From NCBI GenBank assembly GCA_038205745.1, contig JBBRBM010000006.1, forward strand, positions 1 through 63,258: a stretch of 63,258 bases of DNA, in the 5' to 3' direction. Below the pieces are notes generated by a model. It saw only the letters and a list, made by a program, of their open reading frames with translations, did not search any database and was not told the DNA's origin. The translations under genes were made by a program, and so were the position numbers. Below, piece after piece: positions 23,241 to 57,644 of this stretch; positions within the stretch are counted from its first letter, which is position 1, and each line of letters opens with the position of its first letter. Source of the DNA: Verrucomicrobiota bacterium (GTDB lineage: Bacteria > Verrucomicrobiota > Verrucomicrobiia > Limisphaerales > SIBH01).

Positions 23241-24262
23241 AAGCCCCGCTTCGCTTCGCCATCTTCGGCACGGGCTTCTGGTCGCGCTATCAACTCGCGG
23301 GCTGGCGCGAGTTGAAAGGCGCAGAGTGCGTGGCGCTCTACAATCGCACACGCAGCAAGGCTGAGAAGCTCGCGACGGAGTTCGGCGCGCCCGCAGTTTA
23401 CGACGACGCCGAAGAACTGCTCGCGCGCGAGAAGCTCGACTTCATCGACATCATCACGGACGTGGACACGCACGTGCCGTTCGTGGAACTCGCGGCGAAG
23501 CACAAGGTGCCGGTGATTTGTCAAAAGCCGATGGCGCCGACGCTCGCGATGGCGGAGCGCATGGTGACAACGTGCAAGTCCGCTGGTGTGTCCTTGGCGA
23601 TTCATGAGAACTGGCGCTGGCAAACACCGCTGCGCGAATTGAAGCGCGCGCTTGATTCCGGCGTGATCGGACGCGTGTTCCGCGCTCGTGTCGATTTCTG
23701 CAACAGCTTTCCCGTCTTCGAGAACCAGCCGTTCCTGAAAGAGTTGGAGCAATTCATTCTGACCGACATCGGCAGCCACATTCTCGACACGACACGATTT
23801 CTTTTCGGTGAAGCGCGCACTCTGTATTGCCGCACGGATCGCGTGCATCACGACATCAAGGGCGAAGATGTCGCGACTGTGATGATGGGGATGCACTCCG
23901 GCGCGACGGTCACTTGCAACATGAGTTACGCGAGCCCGGTGGAACACGATCGGTTTCCCGAGACGTTCGTGTTCATCGAAGGCGAACTTGGCTCGATCGA
24001 ACTCGCGCCGGATTTCTGGCTGCGCGTCACGACGAAGAACGGCACGCAATCGCGCCGCTGCCCGCCGCCGTTTTATCCGTGGGCGGATGCGCGCTACGCG
24101 CTCGTTCACACCAGCATCGTCGCGTGTAATGCGGATCTGGTGCGCGCGTTCCAAACGAACACTCCGGCTGAGACGAGCGGCGACGACAATTTGAAAACGG
24201 TGAAGCTCGTGTTCGCATCGTACGACGCGGCGAACACCGGACGCGTCATCACACTGAATTGA
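23237..24262 (+). CDS. apsD: Gfo/Idh/MocA oxidoreductase, probable D-apiose dehydrogenase
   Basis: DFIDI, PVICQKP, HENWRWQTP, NQPFL and IKGEDVAT match the ApsD subfamily as recalled; adjacent to apnO. Confidence 0.7.
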   Translation: MKAPLRFAIFGTGFWSRYQLAGWRELKGAECVALYNRTRSKAEKLATEFGAPAVYDDAEELLAREKLDFIDIITDVDTHVPFVELAAKHKVPVICQKPMAPTLAMAERMVTTCKSAGVSLAIHENWRWQTPLRELKRALDSGVIGRVFRARVDFCNSFPVFENQPFLKELEQFILTDIGSHILDTTRFLFGEARTLYCRTDRVHHDIKGEDVATVMMGMHSGATVTCNMSYASPVEHDRFPETFVFIEGELGSIELAPDFWLRVTTKNGTQSRRCPPPFYPWADARYALVHTSIVACNADLVRAFQTNTPAETSGDDNLKTVKLVFASYDAANTGRVITLN

Positions 24263-24265
24263 TTT

Positions 24266-24364
24266 ACTGACCTACTGATTACTGATTACTGATCACTGAA
24301 AACTGATCACTGATTACTGATCACTGAAAACTGATCACTGAAAACTGATCACTGAAAACTGAAC
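24266..24364 (+). repeat. Tandem heptamer array ACTGA(TT/TC/AA) x13 plus one imperfect unit
   Basis: actgacct, then actgatt actgatt actgatc actgaaa actgatc actgatt actgatc actgaaa actgatc actgaaa actgatc actgaaa actgaac, directly before ATG 24365. Confidence 0.95.
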
Positions 24365-25195
24365 ATGAAAACCCTGACCCTCATCGGAGCCGGCGGCAAA
24401 ATGGGTTGCCGCATCACCAACAACATCAAGAACAGCGACTGGACGGTGCATTACCTGGAAGTCAGCGCGCCCGGCATCCAGCGGCTCGCTGATTGCGGCG
24501 TGAGTTGTTCCGAACCTTCGGAAGCGTTGCGCGCGGCAGATGTGGCGATCTTCGCGGTGCCGGATGTGGCGATCGAACTGGTGACGAATGAAATGATCCC
24601 GAAGCTGAAGTCCGGCGCACTGGTGATCCTGCTCGATCCCGCGGCGCCGCTCGATGGCAAGGTCGCGCAGCGTGCTGACCTCGGTTACTTCATCGCGCAC
24701 CCGTGTCACCCGTCCGTGTTCAACTGGGAACCGACCGAGCAATCATTCCGAGATTTTTACGGTGGCATTTCGGCCAAGCAGGCGGCGGTCTGCGCTTTGA
24801 TGAGCGGGGACGAAAAGTATTACGAACTCGGAGCTGAAGTGACGAAACTGATCTACAAGCCAGTGAATAAAATCCATCGCGTGACGCTGGAGCAAATGGC
24901 GATCCTCGAGCCCGCGCTCGTCGAAACGCTCGCGCAGACGTGCATGGAGATCGTGAAGGAAGGTTATGACCGCACCGTGGCAAAAGGTGTTCCGGCGGAA
25001 GCCGCGCGCGACTTCGTGCTCGGCCATTTGCGTATCCAGATCGCGGTGTTGTTCGGCGAAGTGAACGGAACGTTTTCGGACGCCGCCTACAAGATCAGCA
25101 AGCGGGCCAAGCCGGTCCTGTTCAAGGAAGGATGGCAAAAGATTTTCGAGATGGACGACATCCGCGAACAGGTGCGGGACATTACGAGGAAGTAG
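24365..25195 (+). CDS. apnO: D-apionate oxidoisomerase (ApnO family, PGDH_C domain)
   Basis: LIGAGGKMG.R, AVPD, LDPAAP, HPCHP, (Y/F)GGI.AKQ, EQMAILEPALVET, ARDF.LGH, FSDAA. Confidence 0.8.
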   Translation: MKTLTLIGAGGKMGCRITNNIKNSDWTVHYLEVSAPGIQRLADCGVSCSEPSEALRAADVAIFAVPDVAIELVTNEMIPKLKSGALVILLDPAAPLDGKVAQRADLGYFIAHPCHPSVFNWEPTEQSFRDFYGGISAKQAAVCALMSGDEKYYELGAEVTKLIYKPVNKIHRVTLEQMAILEPALVETLAQTCMEIVKEGYDRTVAKGVPAEAARDFVLGHLRIQIAVLFGEVNGTFSDAAYKISKRAKPVLFKEGWQKIFEMDDIREQVRDITRK

Positions 25196-25269
25196 TTGGT
25201 TGTCGGTTGTTCGTGGTTCGTTGTGGCCGCACGGAGTCACATTCCACGAACCACAAACCACGAACCACG
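25196..25269. repeat. Inverted heptamer arms (TTCGTGG-like / CCACGAA-like) with short spacer
   Basis: ttggttg tcggttg ttcgtgg ttcgttg ... ccacgaa ccacaaa ccacgaa ccacg, between the apnO stop and the next start. Confidence 0.85.
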
Positions 25270-26075
25270 TGCAATTAGGAATCAGCAGTTACACGTTCGG
25301 CTGGGCGATCGGAGTGCGCGGTTCAGAACCGATGCAACCGCTCGACGAGCACGGTTTGCTCGACAAGGCGCGCGAGTTCGGCGTGAAGCTGTTGCAGGTC
25401 GGCGACAATCTTCCGCTGCACACATTCGACGAAGCGCGGCTGGCGAAGCTTGCGGAACGCGCAACGCGTGAATGTGTTCAGATCGAGGTCGGTGCTCGGC
25501 GGCTCGTACCGGAGCGGGTCGCTGAATATGCGCGCATTGCTCGTCGGCTGAACGCGAAGCTGATCCGTTTCGTGGTCGATGACGCAGACTTTCATCCAAA
25601 GCCCGAAGACGTCACCGCTGTATTGAAGGAATGCGCGCCGATGCTCGATGGGCTTCTGCTCGGGATTGAGAATCACGATCGCTTCACCGCCGGGACGTTG
25701 CGCGAAATGATCGAACGAGCGGGCAGCGACCGCATCGGCGTGTGTCTCGACACGGCGAATTCATTCGGCGCAGGCGAAGGCATCGACGCCGTGGCGGAAA
25801 CGCTCGCGCCGTTGGTCTTGAATCTGCACGTGAAAGACTTTCACATCGCGCGCGTGCCTCACCTCATGGGATTCACGGTCACCGGACGACCGGCGGGCAG
25901 CGGCCTTTTGGATTTGCCGCGGCTGCTCAAACAACTGGCGTCCGCGCGCCGGTGTGAAACCGCGATCCTCGAGCTCTGGACTCCACCCGAGCCACGGCTC
26001 GAAGACACAATCGCGAAAGAGGCGGCGTGGGCCGCGCAAAGCATCAACTACCTCAAGCCATTCTTTAAGATATGA
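25269..26075 (+). CDS. Xylose-isomerase-like TIM barrel, probable 3-oxo-isoapionate decarboxylase (OiaC-like)
   Basis: LGISSYTFGW, IENHDR, CLDTANS, LHVKDF, LELW motifs; follows apnO. Start GTG 25269 inferred. Confidence 0.6.
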   Translation: MQLGISSYTFGWAIGVRGSEPMQPLDEHGLLDKAREFGVKLLQVGDNLPLHTFDEARLAKLAERATRECVQIEVGARRLVPERVAEYARIARRLNAKLIRFVVDDADFHPKPEDVTAVLKECAPMLDGLLLGIENHDRFTAGTLREMIERAGSDRIGVCLDTANSFGAGEGIDAVAETLAPLVLNLHVKDFHIARVPHLMGFTVTGRPAGSGLLDLPRLLKQLASARRCETAILELWTPPEPRLEDTIAKEAAWAAQSINYLKPFFKI

Positions 26076-26130
26076 AATTTGTGTTGTCGCTGTTCGCCGA
26101 TCCGATGCGCTTTGGTTTTCTGAGTGGGCG

Positions 26131-26290
26131 TTCCCCCTCACCCCGGCCGTCTCCCTTGGGGAGAGGGAGAAGCGTTTCGTCGTCTCGCCACATTCTGTCA
26201 CGTCTCGTGCGATTACCGCGCTGTGCTTGCACCGAAAGTGGGAAACCGTGTCCCCCTCTCCCCCAGGGAGGGGGCCGGGGTGAGGGGGAA
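26131..26290. repeat. CCCTCACCCCGGCC-type REP/MITE inverted pair
   Basis: TTCCCCCTCACCCCGGCCGTCTCCCTTGGGGAGAGGGAGA (26131-26170) / TCCCCCTCTCCCCCAGGGAGGGGGCCGGGGTGAGGGGGAA (26251-26290). Confidence 0.85.
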
Positions 26291-26314
26291 AGCAGCGCAA
26301 TTTTTCCCCGCCCC

Positions 26315-27322
26315 ATGCGACTGCTCTGCACCGCGTTTAGCGCACTCGCGCTTCTTTTCGTTGGCTGCAACAAATCAGATTCGGGCGGCGGGTCCACGTC
26401 CAGCGCGAGCGGGAAACAGCTCACCATTGGCGTCTCGTTCGAGACGTTGCAGACCGAATATTGGGTCGCCGGTTTCAACGCGATCAAAGACGAATTGAAG
26501 CAATGCAACTTCAAGGTTCTTGAAGCAGTGGCCGACGGCGATGCGAACAAGCAACTCGAACAAGTGCGCAACTTCATCACGCGCAAAGTGGATGGCATCA
26601 TCATCGTGCCGAAGGACGCGAAGACGATCCTTCCGTCCATCAAGGCCGCGAACGCGGCGAACATTCCGATCGTGCTGTTCAACCGTCCGGCAGATGTGAG
26701 TGCGGGCGTGAAATCCGCGGCGGTTGTTGCGGATAACTTCGCGCTCACGAAAGAGACGGTGACCTACATGATCGGCGAGGCGAAGAAGACCGGGAAGAAG
26801 CACAAGGCGCTCGTCGTAATCGGCGACCTTGGAGACATCAATGCGATCGGGCGTCGCGATGGTTTCGAAGCTGCCGTAAAAGAAGCGCCCGACGTCGTCG
26901 AGGTGGCTGCGCGCGTGCCAAGCGAGTGGAACCAGGAAAAGGCACAGGCGGGTGTGGTCAACGCGTTGCAGGCGAACCCGGACATTTCATTCATCTTCAC
27001 CAGCTCGGACTTTTTGTTTCCAAGCATCGTCAGCGCGCTGAAAAGCAGCGGGAAGTACAAGAAGATCGGCGAGCCTGGCCACGTGATCCTCGGCGGGTTC
27101 GACGGCGACGCGATGGCTTACCAGATGTTGAAGGACGGCTACCTCGACGCGACGGGCGTGCAGGACGTTTACTTCGAAGCGAAGGCGAGCGTGCAGGCGG
27201 TGCTCGACATGCGTGAAGGCAAACAGGTCGCCGACGTGATCAAGGATCCCGGGTTCGTGATTCATCAAGCGAACTTGAAGGAGAAGGCGGGACAGATGTG
27301 GGGAGCGAATGTGAAACGATAG
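26315..27322 (+). CDS. Sugar ABC transporter substrate-binding lipoprotein (RbsB-like)
   Basis: Lipobox LLFVGC; VDGIIIVP, IPIVLFNR, RRDGF and GGFDG periplasmic-binding motifs. Confidence 0.88.
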   Translation: MRLLCTAFSALALLFVGCNKSDSGGGSTSSASGKQLTIGVSFETLQTEYWVAGFNAIKDELKQCNFKVLEAVADGDANKQLEQVRNFITRKVDGIIIVPKDAKTILPSIKAANAANIPIVLFNRPADVSAGVKSAAVVADNFALTKETVTYMIGEAKKTGKKHKALVVIGDLGDINAIGRRDGFEAAVKEAPDVVEVAARVPSEWNQEKAQAGVVNALQANPDISFIFTSSDFLFPSIVSALKSSGKYKKIGEPGHVILGGFDGDAMAYQMLKDGYLDATGVQDVYFEAKASVQAVLDMREGKQVADVIKDPGFVIHQANLKEKAGQMWGANVKR

Positions 27323-27327
27323 ATGGC

Positions 27328-27352
27328 GGTTCGTGGTTCGTGGTTCGTGGTG
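27328..27352 (+). repeat. Left heptamer arm (GGTTCGT)x3
   Basis: ggttcgt ggttcgt ggttcgt ggtgg immediately upstream of the four-helix-bundle gene. Confidence 0.85.
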
Positions 27353-27360
27353 GGGTGCGT

Positions 27361-27735
27361 ATGGCTAAGACGAATTTTGAGAAACTAAGGGTTTACGGAT
27401 TGGCGGAAGAGATTGCGGATTTGATTTGGGACATCGCACTGGAGTGGCCGGGGTTTGCGAAGGACGCCGTTGGCAAGCAGATTGTTCGGGCCGCGGATAG
27501 CATCGGAGCGAACATCGCCGAAGGTGTCGGACGCGGAAGTCACAAGGACAATCAGCGTTTCGTTCGAACCGCGCGCGGCTCACTTTACGAAACGAAGCAT
27601 TGGCTGCGGCGGGCGTTCAAGCGAAAGCTTCTCACAAAAGCGCAGGTGGACTCCCTCAAGCCATTGCTCGACGAATTAGCGCCAAAGCTCAACGCCTATC
27701 TCAACTCCATCGGTCGCTTTCCAGACACCGAATGA
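27361..27735 (+). CDS. Four-helix-bundle protein (23S rRNA IVP / TIGR02436-like)
   Basis: FEKLRVY, QIVRAADSIGANIAEG.GR, RFVRTARGSLYET motifs. Confidence 0.9.
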   Translation: MAKTNFEKLRVYGLAEEIADLIWDIALEWPGFAKDAVGKQIVRAADSIGANIAEGVGRGSHKDNQRFVRTARGSLYETKHWLRRAFKRKLLTKAQVDSLKPLLDELAPKLNAYLNSIGRFPDTE

Positions 27736-28730
27736 CCGCCACCACAACAAGCAACGAACAACGAACAACAAACAAGTTCCTAACCCTTTTCGCGTCCGAA
27801 TACCTCGTCCTCGCTCTGTGCGTTCTTTATTTCACGGCTCTTGCGCCGTTTGCTGAAGGCTTCGCGTCGCGCGGCAATTTCGGGAACATCCTGCTCACGC
27901 TCCTGCCACTGTTCATGTTGGCGATCGGGCAGACCGTGGTGCTCATCACGGGCGGCATCGATTTGTCAGTCACCTCCACCATCGCGCTCACGAGCGTGGT
28001 CGGAGCGATGGTGATGAGCGGTGACAACGGCTGGCTCGCTGGCAACCCATTGGCGGTGCCGATTGCGATCACTCTGATGCTCATCGTCGGCGGGGCGGTT
28101 GGACTGCTGAATGGAATTGCCATCACGCGGCTGCGCATGCCGGCGTTCATCGTGACGCTCACCACGATGATGTTCGTGAGCGGGTTCGCGGTGTGGCTGA
28201 CGAAGTCGAAGAACATCGGCGCGCTGCCCGGCGCTTTCACGTTGATCGGGAACAATCTTTGGATTTCCCTGCCGCTCACCGCGGTCGTGGCCGCGTTCGC
28301 TCACTTGATGCTGAGCCGATCGCTGTTTGGCCGCTGGCTTTACGCTGTCGGGCACAACAACCGCGCGGCTTACGTCTCGGGCGTGCCGGTCGCGGGCATC
28401 ACGTGTTCGGCTTACGTCGTCAGCGGCGCGTGCGCGGCGCTTGCGTCGGTGCTGCTCACCGGCCAGGCGGAGACGGGTTCGCCCGTCCTCGGCAAAAACC
28501 TGCTGCTCGATGTCATCGGCGCCACCGTCATCGGTGGCACCAGCCTGTTTGGGGGAAAAGGCAAAGTGCTGTGGACCTTGTTCGGCGTGCTCTTCCTGAA
28601 ACTCATCGATAACAGTCTCAACCTGCTGAATCTCTCCGACTGGGACATCCGCATGGTGAAGGGCGGAGTGATCTTGTTCGCCGCGCTGATGGATGCGGTG
28701 CGGAATCGGTTCGTGGTTCGTAGTTCGTAG
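27732..28730 (+). CDS. Sugar ABC transporter permease (RbsC-like)
   Basis: GQTVVLITGGIDLSV, PAFIVTL, GRWLYAVG, IGGTSLFGGKG; ATGA overlap with the upstream gene. Confidence 0.92.
   Translation: MTATTTSNEQRTTNKFLTLFASEYLVLALCVLYFTALAPFAEGFASRGNFGNILLTLLPLFMLAIGQTVVLITGGIDLSVTSTIALTSVVGAMVMSGDNGWLAGNPLAVPIAITLMLIVGGAVGLLNGIAITRLRMPAFIVTLTTMMFVSGFAVWLTKSKNIGALPGAFTLIGNNLWISLPLTAVVAAFAHLMLSRSLFGRWLYAVGHNNRAAYVSGVPVAGITCSAYVVSGACAALASVLLTGQAETGSPVLGKNLLLDVIGATVIGGTSLFGGKGKVLWTLFGVLFLKLIDNSLNLLNLSDWDIRMVKGGVILFAALMDAVRNRFVVRSS
27742..27776 (-). repeat. Right heptamer arm (inverse of TTCGTTG-type), translated as the permease N-terminus
   Basis: ccacaac aagcaac gaacaac gaacaac aaacaag encodes TTSNEQRTTNK. 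Confidence 0.8.
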
Positions 28731-28786
28731 TTCGTAGTTCGTTGCAATGGAAACGACAAACCACGAACAACGAACAACGAACGACG
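28708..28786. repeat. Inverted heptamer arms spanning the permease/ATPase junction
   Basis: ggttcgt ggttcgt agttcgt agttcgt agttcgt tg - caatgga - aacgaca aaccacg aacaacg aacaacg aacgacg; supplies the permease stop and the ATPase N-terminus METTNHEQRTTND. Confidence 0.9.
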
Positions 28787-30582
28787 CGCTCCTGTCGTTC
28801 CGCGCGATTGAGAAATCCTTCTTCGGCGTGCGCGTGTTGAAGAGCGTGTCACTGCGCGTGCGCCGTGGAAGTGTTCTGGGACTGGTCGGCGAAAACGGCG
28901 CGGGCAAGTCCACGCTGATGAACATTCTCGGCGGTAACTTGCGGCCGGATGCGGGCGAGTTGCTGCTGAACGAGGCACGCTTCGAGCCAAGACATCCGAC
29001 GGACGCGGCGCGAGCCGGCATCGCGTTCGTGCATCAGGAACTGAACCTGTTTTCCAACCTGACCATCGCGGAAAATATTTTTCTCACATCGTTTCCGCGT
29101 GCGCTGCCGCCGTTCATTGCGCGGCGGCAACTGCGCGACCGGGCGGCTGAACTGTTGAACGAAGTGGGGCTGAACCTCAGCCCGGACACGCTGGTCGAGC
29201 GGCTTCCGGCGGGCGAACGGCAACTCGTGGAAATCGCGAAGGCACTGAGCCTCGCGCCCAAGCTCATCATCCTCGATGAGCCGACGACTTCGTTGAGCGC
29301 GCGAGAGACAGAACATTTGTTTGCGCTGATGCAACGGCTGCGCGAGCGCGGTGTGGCGATGATCTACATCTCGCACATTCTCGGCGACGTGCTGCGGTTG
29401 TGCGACGACATCGTGGTGTTGCGCGACGGCGCGATGGTGGGCAACGGCGTGCGCGCGGAGTTCACGAGCGAACGAATGATTTCGCTGATGGTGGGACGGG
29501 AGCTGAGCCAGCTTTATCCGAAGCGTCGGGAGCGCGGCGATTCTGTCCCCCTCTCCCCTCAACGGGGAGAGGGCTGGGGTGAGGGGTGGGAACGTCACGA
29601 AACACAGGCTGCGAATGAAAGCGCCGGGCTGAACCACCCCGCACCCGTTACCCCTCCCCATGAACCTTTCCTCGGTAGCAGCCGACGTGACGAGGCTCAT
29701 GCTTCTCAACCGGAGAAAGATCAGAGCCTCGTTACCTCGGCTGCTACGGTACAGGGGTTTGAAGCGCGAAATTTCGTTTCGGGAAATTCTCTCCCCGTTG
29801 AGAGGAGAGGGGGACCAGAGGCGCTGCTCGAACTGCGCCACGTCTCGCAGCCGCACATCGTGCGGGACATTTCGTTCGCACTGCATCGCGGCGAGGTGTT
29901 GGGTATTTCGGGACTCATGGGCGCGGGACGTTCGGAGCTGGCGCGAATCATCTTCGGTCTTGATGCCCATGCGGGCGGCGAGATTCTGCTGAACGGCAAA
30001 GCGCTTCCACGCAGCGGCCCACGGGCACGGATTCAACATGGGCTCGCCTTCCTCACCGAAGATCGCCGGCATGAAGGACTCTGCCTCGAAGCATCGATTG
30101 CCGACAATCTGGCGCTCGTCGCCTTGCGCCGCCATGCGCGCACGCCGCTGAAATTTTTGAGCACCGGCACTTGGCGCGAAGCCATTCGCACGATGCGGGC
30201 GGCGGTGAAGCTCAGTCCGAACGCGCGCGACGAGCAGGCGGTGAAGACTTTGAGCGGCGGCAATCAACAGAAGGTGGTGATCGGTAAATGGCTCGTGGCC
30301 GAGCCACGCGTGTTCATTCTCGACGAACCGACGCGCGGCATCGACGTGGGTGCGAAGTTTGAAATCTATCAACTCATCCACGACCTGGCGGACCGCGGCG
30401 CGGGCGTGCTCGTGATTTCTTCCGAGATGGAGGAACTCATCGGCATTTGTGATCGCATCCTCGTGATGGCGCAGGGCGAGATCCGCGACGAATTGCGCTC
30501 GGTCGAGTTTGATCGCGAACGAATCCTGCGCGCCGCATTGCTGGACGGAGCGCGGACGGTCACGTCCGCGCGAACCCCATGA
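28747..30582 (+). CDS. Sugar ABC transporter ATP-binding protein (RbsA-like) with ~90-aa REP-derived linker insertion
   Basis: GENGAGKST, ILDEPT, LSGGNQQKV, DEPTRGIDVG; insertion at about 29547-29816. Confidence 0.92.
   Translation: METTNHEQRTTNDALLSFRAIEKSFFGVRVLKSVSLRVRRGSVLGLVGENGAGKSTLMNILGGNLRPDAGELLLNEARFEPRHPTDAARAGIAFVHQELNLFSNLTIAENIFLTSFPRALPPFIARRQLRDRAAELLNEVGLNLSPDTLVERLPAGERQLVEIAKALSLAPKLIILDEPTTSLSARETEHLFALMQRLRERGVAMIYISHILGDVLRLCDDIVVLRDGAMVGNGVRAEFTSERMISLMVGRELSQLYPKRRERGDSVPLSPQRGEGWGEGWERHETQAANESAGLNHPAPVTPPHEPFLGSSRRDEAHASQPEKDQSLVTSAATVQGFEARNFVSGNSLPVERRGGPEALLELRHVSQPHIVRDISFALHRGEVLGISGLMGAGRSELARIIFGLDAHAGGEILLNGKALPRSGPRARIQHGLAFLTEDRRHEGLCLEASIADNLALVALRRHARTPLKFLSTGTWREAIRTMRAAVKLSPNARDEQAVKTLSGGNQQKVVIGKWLVAEPRVFILDEPTRGIDVGAKFEIYQLIHDLADRGAGVLVISSEMEELIGICDRILVMAQGEIRDELRSVEFDRERILRAALLDGARTVTSARTP
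29547..29816. mobile_element. Nested REP/MITE composite fused in frame into the ATPase
   Basis: Outer CCCTCACCCC-type pair; its right arm is split by CCATGAACC...GGTACAGGGG, which encloses a GTAG REP pair (29675-29747). Confidence 0.8.
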
Positions 30583-47351: not shown

Positions 47352-47964
47352 TCATTAGCACCCGGCTGAAGCCGGGTGACACGGCGGGCATGTGATGTTT
47401 CAGCCGCTTCAGCGGCTTTTCGGATCGGTTTGAATGTGGCGGTGAAGAAATGACGTATGCCGCTCCACTCCTACTGCCGCTGCTGGCTGCACCTCACGTG
47501 GGCCACGTTGGAACGTCGTCCCTTACTCGCGCCACCCGCTGCGGCAAAACTTTCGGGATACCTTCACGAATACGCGAAGCACAAGGGCATCTACCTGCGC
47601 ATCAATTATGTGAATGTGGATCACGTTCACGCGTTGATCGACTTACCTGTATCGAGACCCATCGAGGAAGTTCTTCAGTTGCTCAAGGGTGCCTCGTCCC
47701 ATTGGGTGAACGAGAGCAATCTCGTTCCCGCCAAGTTTGGGTGGCAACGCGGGTATGGAGCGTTCTCGGTTTCGCATTCGGGTGTGGAGGAAGTGAGCGC
47801 TTACATCGCAGCCCAAGAAGAGCATCATCGGAAGCGAACGTTCGCCGAGGAAATGAAACTTCTGGTCGAGAAATACGGCTTGCAGTGGCACGAGGAGGAA
47901 AACCGTTGAAACGGTTTTCCTCGATGCGCGACGATTACACCCGGCTAAAGCCGGGTGCTAATGA
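47352..47964. mobile_element. REP-flanked Y1 transposase element (RAYT / IS200-like)
   Basis: Outer inverted hairpins TCATTAGCACCCGGCTGAAGCCGGGTG / CACCCGGCTAAAGCCGGGTGCTAATGA and inner hairpins AGCCGCTTCAGCGGCT / AAAACCGTTGAAACGGTTTT flank the transposase. Confidence 0.85.
47457..47909 (+). CDS. tnpA: IS200/IS605-family (REP-associated-type) tyrosine transposase
   Basis: HUH motif DHVHAL; LKGASS, WQRGYGAFSVS, YI..Q..HH. Confidence 0.9.
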   Translation: MPLHSYCRCWLHLTWATLERRPLLAPPAAAKLSGYLHEYAKHKGIYLRINYVNVDHVHALIDLPVSRPIEEVLQLLKGASSHWVNESNLVPAKFGWQRGYGAFSVSHSGVEEVSAYIAAQEEHHRKRTFAEEMKLLVEKYGLQWHEEENR

Positions 47965-56156: not shown

Positions 56157-57644
56157 TCAATTCGAGGCGAGGGCGAGCTTCTTCAGTTCAGGTTTCAGAA
56201 TTTTTCCCGTCGCATTGCGTGGGAGCGCGGGCATCACGACGATGCGTTTCGGGACTTTGTAATCAGCCAGTCGTTCGCGGAGAAATTGCTGGAGTGCTTT
56301 CGTGTCGATTGACGCGCCTTCGTTCGCCGCGACGAAAGCGAGCGGTTGTTCGCCACGGCGTGGATCGGGCACGCCGATGACGGCTGCTTCCTTCACTCCG
56401 GGAAACTGGTAAATGACTTCCTCGATCTGGCGCGGATAAACGTTGATGCCGTTCACGAGCAGCATGTCTTTCTTGCGATCGGTGATGAAGAAGTAGCCGT
56501 CACCGTCGCGATGGCCCACGTCGCCCGTGAGCAGCCAACCGTCGCGAATGGCGTGCGCGGTTTCTTCAGGTTGATTCCAGTAACCGAGCATCACATTCGG
56601 GCCGCGCACGGAGATTTCGCCGGTTTCACCATCGGAGAGAATATTGCCCGTATCGTCCTGCACCGTGATTTCAACGCCAGGGATCGGCACGCCGATGGAG
56701 CCGGCCTTCCACGGGCCTTTGATGGGGTTTATGCTACACACCGGACTCGCTTCGCTCAGGCCGTAGCCTTCGAGGAGCGGCACGGGCATCTTCGATGTGA
56801 ATTCGGTGAGAATCTCGGCCGGCAATGGCGCGCCACCACTGATGCAGAGGCGCAGTGGGAAGTCTTTTGGCACGGGCACTTGCGCCAGCGCACGGAAGAA
56901 CTGTGGGACGGCCGGTAAAATGGTCGCACCGTTTTGGAGAATTTCTGCGATGACATTCTTCGCTGGGTTCACTGACTTGATCAGCAATAGCGAGCCGCCC
57001 ACGAGCAGCGGCAGCAACACGCCAACCGTCATCATGAAGCTGTGAAACATCGGCAGCAACACGACGAAACGGTCGTGGTCCACGGCGGCGAGAACCTGTC
57101 GGCAGCTCTCGACGTTGCTCAAAAGATTGCCGTGGCTGAGCATCGCGCCTTTGGGTTTGCCAGTGGTGCCGCTGGTGTAGATGAGGACAGCCAGATCGTT
57201 GATTGAGGATTGAGGATTGGGGATTTTGGATTCGGTGACGGGAGCGTCGAAGATTCCTTCGGTGAGGAGAAATTTCGTTTCAGCTCGAAGTGTGGCGAGC
57301 CTTGCTGCTTGTTCGTCCAGGCTCGCGTCGCGGATCACGACGTTCACGCCGGCGTCATCGAGGATGAAATCGACTTCATCCGCCTTGAGGAAGTTGTTCA
57401 CCGACACGACGATCCCGCCAGCGAAGAGGATGCCGAAGTAGGCCGGAATGAATTCGGGACAATTCTTCATCCACAACGCCACTCGATCGCCCGGACGGAC
57501 GCCGAAGTCGCGCACCACCCGCTGCGCGACATTCAAGGTGGACGCCAGCAGCGTGGCGTACGAGATCTTATCATCGCCCCAGAACACGGCGGTCTTCTGC
57601 GCGTGTGTGCGCGCGGAGTTCAGGAATGCCGTGGCGAGGTTCAT
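56157..57644 (-). CDS. Long-chain fatty acid--CoA ligase (AMP-binding)
   Basis: YTSGTTGKPKG, EGYGLSE, TGDVG...DRKKD, LPRNATGKI; start ATG 57644 inferred. Confidence 0.9.
   Translation of the reverse strand: MNLATAFLNSARTHAQKTAVFWGDDKISYATLLASTLNVAQRVVRDFGVRPGDRVALWMKNCPEFIPAYFGILFAGGIVVSVNNFLKADEVDFILDDAGVNVVIRDASLDEQAARLATLRAETKFLLTEGIFDAPVTESKIPNPQSSINDLAVLIYTSGTTGKPKGAMLSHGNLLSNVESCRQVLAAVDHDRFVVLLPMFHSFMMTVGVLLPLLVGGSLLLIKSVNPAKNVIAEILQNGATILPAVPQFFRALAQVPVPKDFPLRLCISGGAPLPAEILTEFTSKMPVPLLEGYGLSEASPVCSINPIKGPWKAGSIGVPIPGVEITVQDDTGNILSDGETGEISVRGPNVMLGYWNQPEETAHAIRDGWLLTGDVGHRDGDGYFFITDRKKDMLLVNGINVYPRQIEEVIYQFPGVKEAAVIGVPDPRRGEQPLAFVAANEGASIDTKALQQFLRERLADYKVPKRIVVMPALPRNATGKILKPELKKLALASN

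What the first reader, a model, noticed from the sequence alone, without database searches (positions are those of the whole stretch)
25196..28786. Inverted heptamer-arm element: one copy carries a four-helix-bundle gene, two are empty
Seen: three gene junctions within 3.6 kb share the same layout, a left arm of (GGTTCGT/AGTTCGT)n followed by a right arm of its inverse (CCACGAA/CAACGAA)n. At 27328-27776 the arms enclose the four-helix-bundle gene. At 25196-25269 and 28708-28786 they enclose only a few bases. Each copy sits at a stop/start junction, and arms are absorbed into host termini (FVVRSS*, METTNHEQRTTN, MTATTTSNEQRTTN), so the operon stays intact. Established: this protein family is related to 23S-IVP and the DGR accessory protein Avd, and its function is unknown. 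Inference: a gene-bearing element with empty derivatives, in which the protein binds or propagates heptamer hairpins at operon junctions.
Basis: partly seen in the sequence, partly recalled or inferred. Interest (0 to 1): 0.85.

Follow-up and report, generated by a model that had tools for sequence, protein, structure and literature searches.

The report
Heptamer-armed four-helix-bundle operon cassette
A small gene of unknown function sits inside a sugar-transporter operon, bracketed by mirror-image runs of a 7-base repeat; the same layout surrounds this gene family across many bacterial groups and may explain why 7-base repeats are so common in bacteria.

Summary
Three junctions of one ABC-transporter operon carry inverted arrays of GGTTCGT-type heptamers. 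One pair encloses a PF05635 (23S rRNA IVS protein) gene.

The layout is general:
- All 8 PF05635 genes of this genome lie between inverted heptamer arrays, each with a different unit. A random control gave 1 of 3000.
- The relaxed test is met by 25 of 40 genes from same-order genomes and 60 of 79 from about ten phylum-level groups. Seven of 9 cyanobacterial plasmid copies show clear arms.
- Arms and gene travel together. Proteins 66-74% identical sit in different operons with homologous arms.
- Dispersed gene-less arrays match the arms of the resident gene in two phyla (Xanthomonadaceae; this order).
- All 8 elements lie in sense orientation between co-directional operon partners.
- One orthologous set shows dN/dS of 0.06-0.16.

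Published work on a 23S rRNA IVS describes the same anatomy: a 28-bp stem, tandem heptamers and RNase III cleavage.

My reading is an IVS-type cassette living in mRNA operons, with REPIN-like gene-less hairpins.

Protein binding and propagation are untested. The neighbouring "empty" hairpin at junction 3 is shared with congeners, so it is not a recent derivative. I found no RNA-strand (G·U) signal and no RNA data.

The parts
24262..24365 (+). One-armed array of about 14 heptamers (ACTGATY/ACTGAAA) filling the junction between the oxidoreductase stop and the PGDH-like gene's ATG. Its unit family (AATCAGT) is that of the PF05635 element on contig C36.
25196..25226 (+). Left (G/T-rich) arm of the gene-less hairpin at the PGDH-like | TIM-barrel junction
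25244..25269 (+). Right (C/A-rich) arm of hairpin 1, 3.7 CCACGAA units. It abuts the in-frame GTG at 25269.
26315..27322 (+). Periplasmic sugar-binding protein gene (Peripla_BP_4), the upstream operon partner
27328..27351 (+). Left arm of the gene-bearing element, 3.4 perfect GGTTCGT units. It starts 6 nt after the binding-protein stop.
27361..27735 (+). PF05635/TIGR02436 four-helix-bundle gene, 124 aa, pI 9.6. Its stop TGA (27733-27735) overlaps the permease ATG (27732-27734).
27744..27775 (+). Right arm of the gene-bearing element (ACGAACA/ACAAACA units), translated as the permease N-terminus
27732..28730 (+). ABC permease (BPD_transp_2), the downstream operon partner
28709..28742 (+). Left arm of gene-less hairpin 3, 4.9 units of GGTTCGT/AGTTCGT. 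It contains the permease stop. One unit fewer in a contig of run X2.
28759..28786 (+). Right arm of hairpin 3, translated as the ATPase N-terminus (ATG at 28747 lies in the loop)
28747..30582 (+). ABC ATPase (two ABC_tran domains)
57196..57232 (+). Solo GATTGAG-type array closely resembling the left arm of the PF05635 element on contig C105

Best explanation
Window 27328-27775 is one copy of a widespread compact cassette: a PF05635 gene of about 120 codons, bracketed directly by two inverted arrays of 4-5 tandem 7-mers (8-mers in some lineages). It has the same anatomy as the ORF-bearing intervening sequences of 23S rRNA, but here it lives inside a protein-coding operon.

The cassette has no room for a promoter of its own. 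It lies in sense orientation between the binding-protein and permease genes and is read from the operon transcript. Its stop overlaps the permease start (ATGA).

Gene and arms are inherited and occasionally moved as one unit. Gene-less heptamer hairpins and arrays with the same unit, such as junctions 1 and 3 here, form the non-autonomous population of the same system, in the way REPINs relate to RAYT genes.

Shown:
- the anatomy and its generality;
- co-inheritance of arms with the gene;
- co-occurrence of cognate arrays with the gene across genomes;
- purifying selection on the protein;
- unit-wise length change of an arm.

Inferred:
- the basic, pentamer-forming protein recognises its own heptamer array (as RNA or single-stranded DNA) and thereby maintains or propagates the arrays;
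- in the transcript the arms pair and affect processing or translational coupling at the junction.
For: **Anatomy**
- All 8 PF05635 hits in the genome are flanked by inverted heptamer arrays with 8 different units.
- The relaxed detector scores 8 of 8 against 1 of 3000 random places.
- The strict detector scores 44 of 79 analysable cross-phylum loci against 0 of 144 shifted controls and 0 of 3000 random places.
- Median arm length is 32 nt (IQR 28-35) and median element span 473 nt.
- In this genome, close inverted pairs of tandem arrays peak at period 7: 38 pairs, against 11 for period 6, 15 for period 8, and 0 for periods 5, 10 and 12.

**Arms belong to the gene**
- The window protein is about 66% identical to copies in G016 (FabI-like | MFS junction) and G015 (HlyD-like junction). 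Those two copies match over 117 codons at 74% identity by tblastx, share GTCAGTA arms and sit in unrelated contexts.
- Unit distance of 1 or less occurs in 52% of pairs at 70% protein identity or more. It occurs in 4% or fewer of pairs below 60%.

**Cognate arrays**
- In 31 Xanthomonadaceae genomes, GGGAWTS x3 gives 157-925 matches in the nine genomes whose gene has such arms.
- It gives 0-12 matches in five genomes whose gene has other arms, and 5 or fewer in 12 of 14 genomes without the gene.
- (GGGGAAC)x3 was predicted from the arms of the G041 gene. G041 is the top genome with 188 matches, and 24 of 31 genomes have none.
- In this order, all 7 of 7 genomes holding a C36-type protein at 60% identity or more have 25 or more RATCAGT x3 matches. 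Only 3 of 14 genomes without it do.

**Operon niche**
- All 8 elements lie between co-directional partners with Pfam-confirmed families.
- No promoter-like site was found in 24000-29200.

**Protein function and array dynamics**
- dN/dS is 0.06-0.16 in the 9 of 15 orthologue pairs where it could be computed. Synonymous sites are saturated (pS 0.60-0.78), yet the arms keep the GATTGAG unit in all six species.
- A contig of run X2 lacks exactly 7 nt at 28716.

**Literature (passages read)**
- The IVS of a 23S rRNA has a 28-bp terminal stem and tandem GACAGAT heptamers upstream of the S23p ORF. RNase III cuts at the first repeat (PMC4990558).

**Fold**
- pLDDT is 93.9. The best match is 2gsc with TM 0.89-0.96. 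The model also matches the Avd chains of DGR ribonucleoprotein structures.
Against: - **No RNA-strand signal.** In 3115 aligned arm positions there are 73 G·U-type mismatches against 88 A·C-type mismatches.
- **Cleavage would be harmful here.** The permease ATG (27732) and the ATPase ATG (28747) lie inside the loops, with their N-termini in the right arms. An RNase III cut in the stem would sever both start codons. Simple IVS-like excision cannot be the whole story.
- **Loops are not conserved.** The 38 gene-less hairpins do not share loop sequences.
- **Arrays occur without a detected cognate gene.** Examples are G040 (56) and G048 (40), and G003, G010 and G004. In G025 the arm subtype does not match the dominant array subtype, and three genomes are mixed.
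- **Arm co-evolution is modest.** Among six orthologues, cognate arm pairs score 56.3 against 44.5 for non-cognate pairs. The cognate arm is the best partner in only 3 of 6 rows.
- **Many family members fail the test.** 15 of 40 same-order genes and 19 of 79 cross-phylum genes fail even the relaxed test.
- **Array length varies widely.** Some arrays reach 25 units (L093).
- **Genomes are related.** The co-occurrence counts are therefore not independent.
- **No binding or RNA data exist.**
Confidence: 0.55

Rival explanations
1. Passive origin. Heptamer arrays arise by replication slippage, and inverted pairs arise by template switching. PF05635 genes are merely tolerated in, or drawn to, hairpin loops. 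The protein has nothing to do with the repeats.
For: - Published proposal that 7 nt favours polymerase slippage, as cited in passages of PMC4692102 and PMC4679880.
- One-unit indel between populations.
- Loops are not conserved.
- No G·U bias.
- Arrays occur in genomes without a detected gene.
- The junction-3 hairpin persists in congeners that lack the gene at junction 2.
Against: - Arms stay with the gene across unrelated contexts.
- The unit found dispersed in a genome is predicted by the arms of its gene.
- The unit is conserved where synonymous sites are saturated.
- 8 of 8 genes are flanked against 1 of 3000 random places.
Confidence: 0.2
2. Host-serving operon device. The hairpins are intercistronic RNA elements that set relative expression or enforce translational coupling, as REP/BIME stabilisers do. 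PF05635 is their domesticated RNA-binding regulator rather than a selfish partner.
For: - Arms sit exactly on stop and start codons.
- ATGA overlap in the window, and by reading in all six C105-type orthologues. It occurs in 18 of 92 elements overall.
- One element is kept at the same ATPase|permease junction in six congeners under purifying selection.
- All 8 elements lie in operon pairs.
Against: - The same junction is empty in G010 and G003. In G001, G008 and G007 it carries unrelated REP-like or IS200-like inserts, so the operon does not need the element.
- The host operons are functionally unrelated: transporters, efflux pumps, Bat, Lpt/Bam-like, cas.
- ATGA coupling is found in a minority of elements.
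Confidence: 0.2
3. Retroelement accessory. As with Avd in diversity-generating retroelements, the protein works with a reverse transcriptase that copies heptamer RNA into new sites.
For: - Fold match to Avd (4dwl) and to Avd chains of DGR ribonucleoprotein structures.
- The genome holds one RVT_1 hit.
Against: - The only reverse-transcriptase hit is on C14 at 50948, about 49 kb from the nearest PF05635 gene. None is in the window.
- No sequence-profile match to Avd at E up to 1.
- No template/variable repeat pair was seen around the element.
Confidence: 0.05

Closest known systems
ORF-bearing intervening sequences (IVS) of 23S rRNA genes (S23p/PF05635 ORF)
   Same: - The same protein family lies in the loop of a long terminal stem.
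- In the one case whose passages I read (PMC4990558), the stem is 28 bp and the 5' side is tandem heptamers whose number varies between strains.
- The element is embedded in, and expressed from, a host transcript.
- It has been regarded as a selfish element since the 1990s (as cited in that paper).
   Different: - Here the host transcript is an mRNA operon, not rRNA.
- Start and stop codons of host genes lie inside the arms and loop, so RNase III excision would damage the host message.
- Gene-less hairpins of the same unit accompany the element.
REP/REPIN sequences and their RAYT (IS200-like Y1) transposases
   Same: - A single gene is flanked by inverted copies of its cognate repeat.
- Many dispersed gene-less hairpin doublets of that repeat occur in intergenic or junction positions.
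- Different paralogues have different repeat families within one genome.
   Different: - The gene is a four-helix bundle with no HUH/Y1 domain.
- The repeat is a tandem array of 7-8-mers rather than a 20-30-nt palindrome.
- True RAYT/REP elements coexist in this genome (14 Y1_Tnp hits).
Over-represented heptanucleotide repeats: Xanthomonas GGGAATC, Nostoc GGGGA(C/T)T, Beggiatoaceae TAACTGA, cyanobacterial STRR
   Same: - Intergenic tandem heptamers, often as convergent inverted pairs: 70-75 pairs per Xanthomonas genome in passages of PMC4692102.
- The GGGAATC/GGGATTC units are the arms of PF05635 genes in Xanthomonadaceae genomes.
   Different: - Those papers treat the repeats as G-quadruplex or regulatory motifs, or as slippage products.
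- In the texts I searched they do not mention S23p or four-helix-bundle genes: 0 occurrences.
- The STRR name and its units are recalled, not seen in a call.
Avd, the accessory protein of diversity-generating retroelements
   Same: Four-helix-bundle fold. Homopentamer in the solved relatives: 5 chains each in 2gsc and 2rld.
   Different: No adjacent reverse transcriptase or template/variable repeats. No profile-level sequence match.

Membership tests
PF05635 / TIGR02436 four-helix-bundle (23S rRNA IVS protein) family | Profile match above the curated cut-off | tested here: met
   Pfam 99.2 bits against a cut-off of 33.8. TIGR02436 90.5 bits against 24.
PF05635 / TIGR02436 four-helix-bundle (23S rRNA IVS protein) family | Four-helix-bundle fold like Xcc0516 (2gsc) | tested here: met
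   Model pLDDT 93.9 with four helices. Match to 2gsc chains with TM 0.84-0.96 depending on normalisation and rmsd 1.0-1.4. Profile E 1.2e-28.
PF05635 / TIGR02436 four-helix-bundle (23S rRNA IVS protein) family | Homopentameric toroid | not tested
   Known only from the solved relatives (5 chains per entry; paper passage). No oligomer prediction was run.
23S rRNA intervening sequence (IVS) element | Inserted in a helix of the 23S rRNA gene | tested here: not met
   It lies between a binding-protein gene and a permease gene. No rRNA match in 23500-29500.
23S rRNA intervening sequence (IVS) element | Terminal inverted repeats forming a stem around the S23p ORF | tested here: met
   Arms 27328-27351 and 27744-27775 pair in the minimum-energy fold.
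23S rRNA intervening sequence (IVS) element | Excision of the element by RNase III | not testable with these tools
   No RNA run holds the locus.
REPIN-RAYT system | Gene flanked by inverted cognate repeats, with dispersed gene-less hairpins of the same repeat | tested here: met
REPIN-RAYT system | Gene encodes a Y1/HUH (IS200-like) transposase | tested here: not met
   PF05635 is the only Pfam hit for the gene. Y1_Tnp hits lie elsewhere.
Diversity-generating retroelement | Adjacent reverse transcriptase with template and variable repeats | tested here: not met
   The single RVT_1 hit in the genome is on another contig.
Intrinsic terminator | G+C-rich stem followed by a T run | tested here: not met
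   No terminator-like site coincides with the arm pairs. 3 sites were found in 5.2 kb against 7.0 expected.

The most novel reading that the evidence does not exclude
PF05635 'IVS proteins' are the trans-acting partners of a REPIN-like system. Each paralogue recognises its own 7-8-nt unit in single-stranded nucleic acid, perhaps one unit per subunit of the pentamer. In doing so it drives the birth or maintenance of tandem-heptamer hairpins at gene junctions.

This system would be the main source of the long-noted excess of heptanucleotide repeats in bacterial genomes (Xanthomonas GGGAATC, cyanobacterial and Beggiatoaceae heptamers). The 23S rRNA IVSs would be only its rRNA-resident minority.
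Probability: 0.3. Interest if true: 0.9.

Novelty: new variant of a known kind. Interest (0 to 1): 0.8.

Why it matters
Three puzzles have been treated separately:
- what the ORF-bearing rRNA intervening sequences are;
- what the very common "four helix bundle protein" genes do;
- why heptanucleotide repeats are over-represented in many bacterial genomes.

The data here tie them together. The gene family comes with inverted heptamer arrays in at least ten phylum-level groups. The dispersed arrays of a genome match the arms of its own gene.

This yields a directly testable hypothesis: cognate protein-repeat recognition, with consequences for operon RNA. It also gives a simple annotation rule for thousands of "hypothetical" junction hairpins.

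In addition, it shows that operon junctions are shared landing sites for unrelated selfish elements. The same junction holds this cassette, REP-like inserts or an IS200-like gene in different congeners.

Tried and rejected
- **RNA-level selection.** Counting G·U against A·C mismatches gave no bias (73 against 88).
- **Expression and RNA ends.** No RNA holder was listed. The DNA contigs laid show only that the related population in run X2 holds the 3' part of the gene and has one heptamer fewer at 28716. Other joints had short sides (22-40 nt) and may come from other organisms.
- **Arm co-evolution among orthologues.** The signal is only modest. The C208-type windows missed their arms and were uninformative.
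- **Subtype matching in Xanthomonadaceae (GGGAATS against GGGATTS).** Four genomes clearly match, one clearly mismatches and three are mixed.
- **Five units per pentamer.** The median arm of 32 nt fits. Arrays of 14-25 units do not, so this stays speculation.
- **Flank-strand predictor.**
  - On 16 flanks of known sense it gave 11 correct, 1 wrong and 4 undecided.
  - On 85 other elements it gave (+,+) 28, (-,-) 4, (+,-) 9 and (-,+) 3. The remaining 41 had at least one undecided flank.
  - The same-order subset was mostly undecided or mixed.
  - Among 9 annotated plasmid loci, both neighbours are co-directional in 5, both are opposite in 2, one has an upstream-only neighbour and one is unannotated.
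- **Known RNA families and signals.** No Rfam family reached its threshold. No promoter or terminator signal lies at the arms.
- **Sampling G020 (no PF05635) for hairpin density.** Rejected as underpowered: about 6 hairpins per Mb are expected.
- **Literature.** Searches found no paper linking heptamer arrays to PF05635 beyond the single-organism IVS description. Supplements were closed and subscription papers are not held, so prior description elsewhere cannot be excluded. The curated TIGR02436 comment was not visible.

Full report
**What is in the window.**
- The region is one co-directional gene string: Gfo/Idh/MocA oxidoreductase, PGDH-like dehydrogenase, xylose-isomerase-like TIM barrel, periplasmic sugar-binding protein, a 124-aa PF05635 protein, permease, double ABC ATPase, second permease.
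- The pattern GTTCGTRGTTCGT (up to 1 mismatch) occurs 13 times, all in these junctions. Shuffles gave a mean of 0.17.
- Host stop and start codons lie in or beside the arms. TAG 25193-25195 comes just before arm 1. TAG 27320-27322 lies 6 nt before the left arm of the gene-bearing copy. TAG 28728-28730 lies inside the left arm of hairpin 3. ATG 28747 lies in its loop.
- The PF05635 stop overlaps the permease start (ATGA at 27732-27735). The right arm is translated as the permease N-terminus.
- As RNA, hairpins 1 and 3 fold better than all 200 shuffles, with z of -2.7 and -4.2. Hairpin 3 is a ladder of 6-bp helices with a mismatch at every seventh position.
- In the fold of the whole element the two arms close the structure, although the total energy is ordinary.
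- A fourth junction (24262-24365) holds a one-armed run of about 14 ACTGATY/ACTGAAA units.

**The layout is a property of the gene family.**
- The genome (6.2 Mb, 359 contigs, 59% G+C) has 8 PF05635 matches, all above the curated cut-off.
- Reading their flanks shows inverted heptamer arrays around every one. Each has a different unit: GGGGACT, AATCAGT, GGTTCGT, GAATGGT, TAATCGT, GATTGCG, GATTGAG, CGAATGT.
- My detector aligns 230 nt upstream with the reverse complement of 230 nt downstream and asks for 6-8-nt periodicity in both arms.
  - Its relaxed form scores 8 of 8 here, 25 of 40 PF05635 genes taken from five same-order genomes, and 60 of 79 analysable loci from a cross-phylum scan. One of 3000 random places in this genome passes.
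  - The strict form scores 4 of 8, 21 of 40 and 44 of 79. It scores 0 of 144 shifted controls and 0 of 3000 random places.
- By record titles, the positives include Verrucomicrobiota, Planctomycetota, Acidobacteriota, Bacteroidota, Alpha- and Gammaproteobacteria, Elusimicrobiota, Nitrospirota, Gemmatimonadota, Omnitrophota and Kiritimatiellota.
- Period 8 occurs in 12 of the 60 positives, 11 of them with Bacteroidota titles.
- Nine PF05635 genes on plasmids were fetched, eight cyanobacterial and one from Azospirillum. Seven show clear arms.
- Fifteen of 40 and 19 of 79 genes fail the relaxed test, so not every family member has arms.

**Anatomy across elements (93 relaxed positives).**
- Arms have a median length of 32 nt (IQR 28-35), and the element spans a median of 473 nt.
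- 88% of aligned arm positions are Watson-Crick pairs.
- The 5' arm is C-poor (11% C, 34% G) and the 3' arm mirrors it. Because a hairpin looks the same on both strands, this polarity does not depend on gene orientation. It also holds for 34 of 38 gene-less hairpins in this genome.
- G·U-type mismatches (73) do not exceed A·C-type mismatches (88). Nothing singles out the sense RNA as the selected structure.
- The PF05635 stop lies before the right arm in 58 of 92 elements, inside it in 30 and after it in 4. A start codon overlapping the stop (NTGA) occurs in 18 of 92.

**Arms and gene are one unit.**
- The window protein is about 66% identical to a copy in G016 that lies between a FabI-like reductase and an MFS transporter. 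It is similarly close to a copy in G015 that follows a HlyD-like gene.
- Those two copies match at 74% identity over 117 codons by tblastx, have homologous GTCAGTA arms, and sit in unrelated neighbourhoods.
- Over all pairs, unit similarity falls with protein divergence. Unit distance of 1 or less is seen in 52% of pairs at 70% identity or more, 23% at 60-70%, and 4% or fewer below that.
- This shows co-inheritance. It does not show binding.

**Residence and turnover.**
- The orthologous binding-protein|permease junction varies among relatives:
  - empty in G010 and G003, with no arms and no gene;
  - an unrelated REP-like insert in G001 and G008;
  - an IS200-like gene with REP-like flanks in G007;
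  - the right arm only, inside the permease N-terminus, in G001, G009 and G015, and a degenerate version in G008.
- The junction-3 hairpin is present in G007 and G009. The local hairpins are therefore older than these species and are not recent offshoots of the window's gene copy.
- The GATTGAG element of contig C105 sits at the same ABC ATPase|permease junction in six congeners. Proteins are 77-89% identical and variant units are mirrored between the arms.
- For that set, dN/dS is 0.06-0.16 in the 9 of 15 pairs where dS could be computed, and pS is 0.60-0.78. The arms keep their unit although synonymous sites are saturated, which argues for a constraint on arm sequence and not only on pairing.
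- Cognate arm pairs score higher than non-cognate pairs (56.3 against 44.5). The cognate arm is the best partner in only 3 of 6 rows.
- A contig of run X2, from a second study, lacks exactly one heptamer at 28716.

**Operon niche.**
- All 8 elements of this genome lie in sense orientation between co-directional genes with confirmed families:
  - binding protein|permease;
  - ABC ATPase|permease;
  - HlyD|AcrB;
  - DUF1553|DUF1501, twice;
  - DUF58|BatA;
  - LptE|BamB-like;
  - SDR|alginate lyase.
- No sigma-70-like site was found in 24000-29200, and only 9 nt separate the left arm from the ATG.
- On plasmids the gene lies between cas6 and cas4 twice, and once between cmr2 and cmr3. Two of the nine plasmid copies are antisense to both neighbours.
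- A crude strand predictor on 85 further elements gave (+,+) 28 against (-,-) 4, with many undecided.

**Gene-less arrays are cognate to the gene's arms.**
- In this genome, 164 of 389 period-7 TRF arrays lie within one mismatch of one of the eight gene-flanking units. The AATCAGT family alone has 70 arrays on 47 contigs.
- Close inverted pairs of tandem arrays number 38 at period 7, against 11, 15 and 6 at periods 6, 8 and 9, and 0-1 at periods 5 and 10-12. Their loops (2-89 nt, most 12-35 nt) are not conserved.
- Among 31 Xanthomonadaceae genomes, 17 have the gene. In nine of them its arms are GGGAATC- or GGGATTC-like.
  - GGGAWTS x3 (up to 2 mismatches) gives 157-925 matches in those nine.
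  - It gives 0-12 matches in five genomes whose gene has other arms, and 70-332 in three others (G021, G031, G034).
  - It gives 5 or fewer in 12 of 14 genomes without the gene. The exceptions are G040 (56) and G048 (40).
- A prediction made from the arms of one gene held. (GGGGAAC)x3 is most abundant in G041 (188). G046 follows with 133 and G045 with 12; four other genomes have 5 or fewer and 24 of 31 have none.
- Subtype matching is imperfect.
- In the window's own order, all 7 of 7 genomes holding a C36-type protein at 60% identity or more have 25 or more RATCAGT x3 matches. They come from three families. Only 3 of 14 others do, and those three are fragmented congeners.
- The genomes are related, so these counts overstate independence.

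**Link to what is known.**
- In passages of PMC4990558, the IVS of one 23S rRNA is a 'selfish genetic element' with a 28-bp terminal stem. It has three or four tandem GACAGAT heptamers upstream of the S23p ORF, in a number that varies between strains. RNase III cuts at the first repeat. Earlier proposals that the IVS is a mobile element are cited there.
- Passages of PMC4692102 describe GGGAATC repeats in Xanthomonas, with 70-75 convergent inverted pairs per genome. They also cite the over-representation of heptamers among bacterial repeats.
- Passages of PMC4679880 describe TAACTGA repeats in Beggiatoaceae.
- Neither of these two texts contains 'S23', and 'intervening' gave no hit in either. 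'Four helix' was searched only in PMC4679880 and was also absent.
- Seven library searches found no paper that joins the two threads.
- The protein model (pLDDT 93.9) matches the pentameric Xcc0516 structure (TM 0.84-0.96 depending on chain and normalisation). More weakly, it matches Avd alone and within DGR ribonucleoprotein structures. A sequence profile finds 2gsc and 2rld but not Avd.

**How it most likely works.**
- Shown: a promoter-less, sense-oriented cassette with tandem-heptamer terminal inverted repeats. It is inherited as a unit, has been resident in operon junctions for long periods, and encodes a protein under purifying selection. It is accompanied in the same genome by gene-less arrays of its own unit that change length by whole units.
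- Inferred: the basic (pI 9.6) pentamer-forming protein recognises its cognate array and is needed to keep or spread such arrays.
- Inferred: in the transcript the arms pair.
- In rRNA, pairing leads to RNase III excision. In this operon, a cut in the stems would remove the start codons of the permease and the ATPase. Here the pairing more plausibly ties downstream initiation to upstream translation, or is kept open by ribosomes.
- I put 0.55 on the element-plus-cognate-repeat reading as a whole and about 0.9 on the anatomical classification. The passive-slippage and host-device readings get 0.2 each, and the latter is not exclusive.

Noticed in passing
window 26100-26300: A G+C-rich inverted repeat (ccccctcaccccggcc...ggccggggtgaggggg type) lies upstream of the binding-protein gene and is read as SPSPRPSPLGRGR in one frame. 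Metagenome contig depth jumps here to 106-361, against about 10 beside it. It therefore looks like a multi-copy repeat shared by many organisms.
   Followed up: no
window 29480-29900, inside the ABC ATPase gene 28747-30582: The ATPase ORF carries an insert of roughly 100 aa between its two ABC domains. The insert has motifs typical of dispersed repeats (PLSPQRGEGWGEGW, SLVTSAATV). It appears to be a repeat insertion kept in frame.
   Followed up: no
window 47475-47816: An IS200-like Y1 transposase match (E 8.4e-20), one of 14 in the genome. Classical REP/RAYT-type elements coexist with the heptamer system.
   Followed up: no
L124 (G001), L127 (G008), L130 (G007): the orthologous binding-protein|permease junction: The same junction that holds the PF05635 cassette here holds REP-like palindromic inserts in two congeners. 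In a third it holds an IS200-like gene flanked by such repeats. The junction is a shared landing site for unrelated elements.
   Followed up: partly
G000 contig C32, 5640-5954 (locus L133): The PF05635 reading frame runs on without a stop through the right arm into the downstream BamB-like PQQ gene, giving a 555-codon open frame. This could be a fusion, or an internal start for the downstream gene.
   Followed up: partly
L181, L185, L184 (cyanobacterial plasmids): Four-helix-bundle genes with heptamer or octamer arms sit inside CRISPR-cas operons, twice between cas6 and cas4 and once between cmr2 and cmr3. In L181 the arrays run to 10-14 units.
   Followed up: partly
L093 (Planctomycetota contig): The arms are about 180 nt long, roughly 25 units of CGGTGGA-type heptamers. 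This is far longer than the usual 4-5 units.
   Followed up: no
window 28716 in run X2; window 27351 and 28763 in run X1: A contig from a second study lacks exactly one heptamer in the left arm of hairpin 3. Another high-depth contig joins GGTTCGT-type arms across a different 33-nt loop. Hairpins of this unit therefore exist elsewhere in the community.
   Followed up: partly
G010 (L122) against window 27732-27775: The permease N-terminus keeps MTAT and its length in G010. The 10 residues that the heptamer array encodes here (TTSNEQRTTN) are replaced there by unrelated sequence (SDPGARPA...). Which state is ancestral is unresolved.
   Followed up: partly
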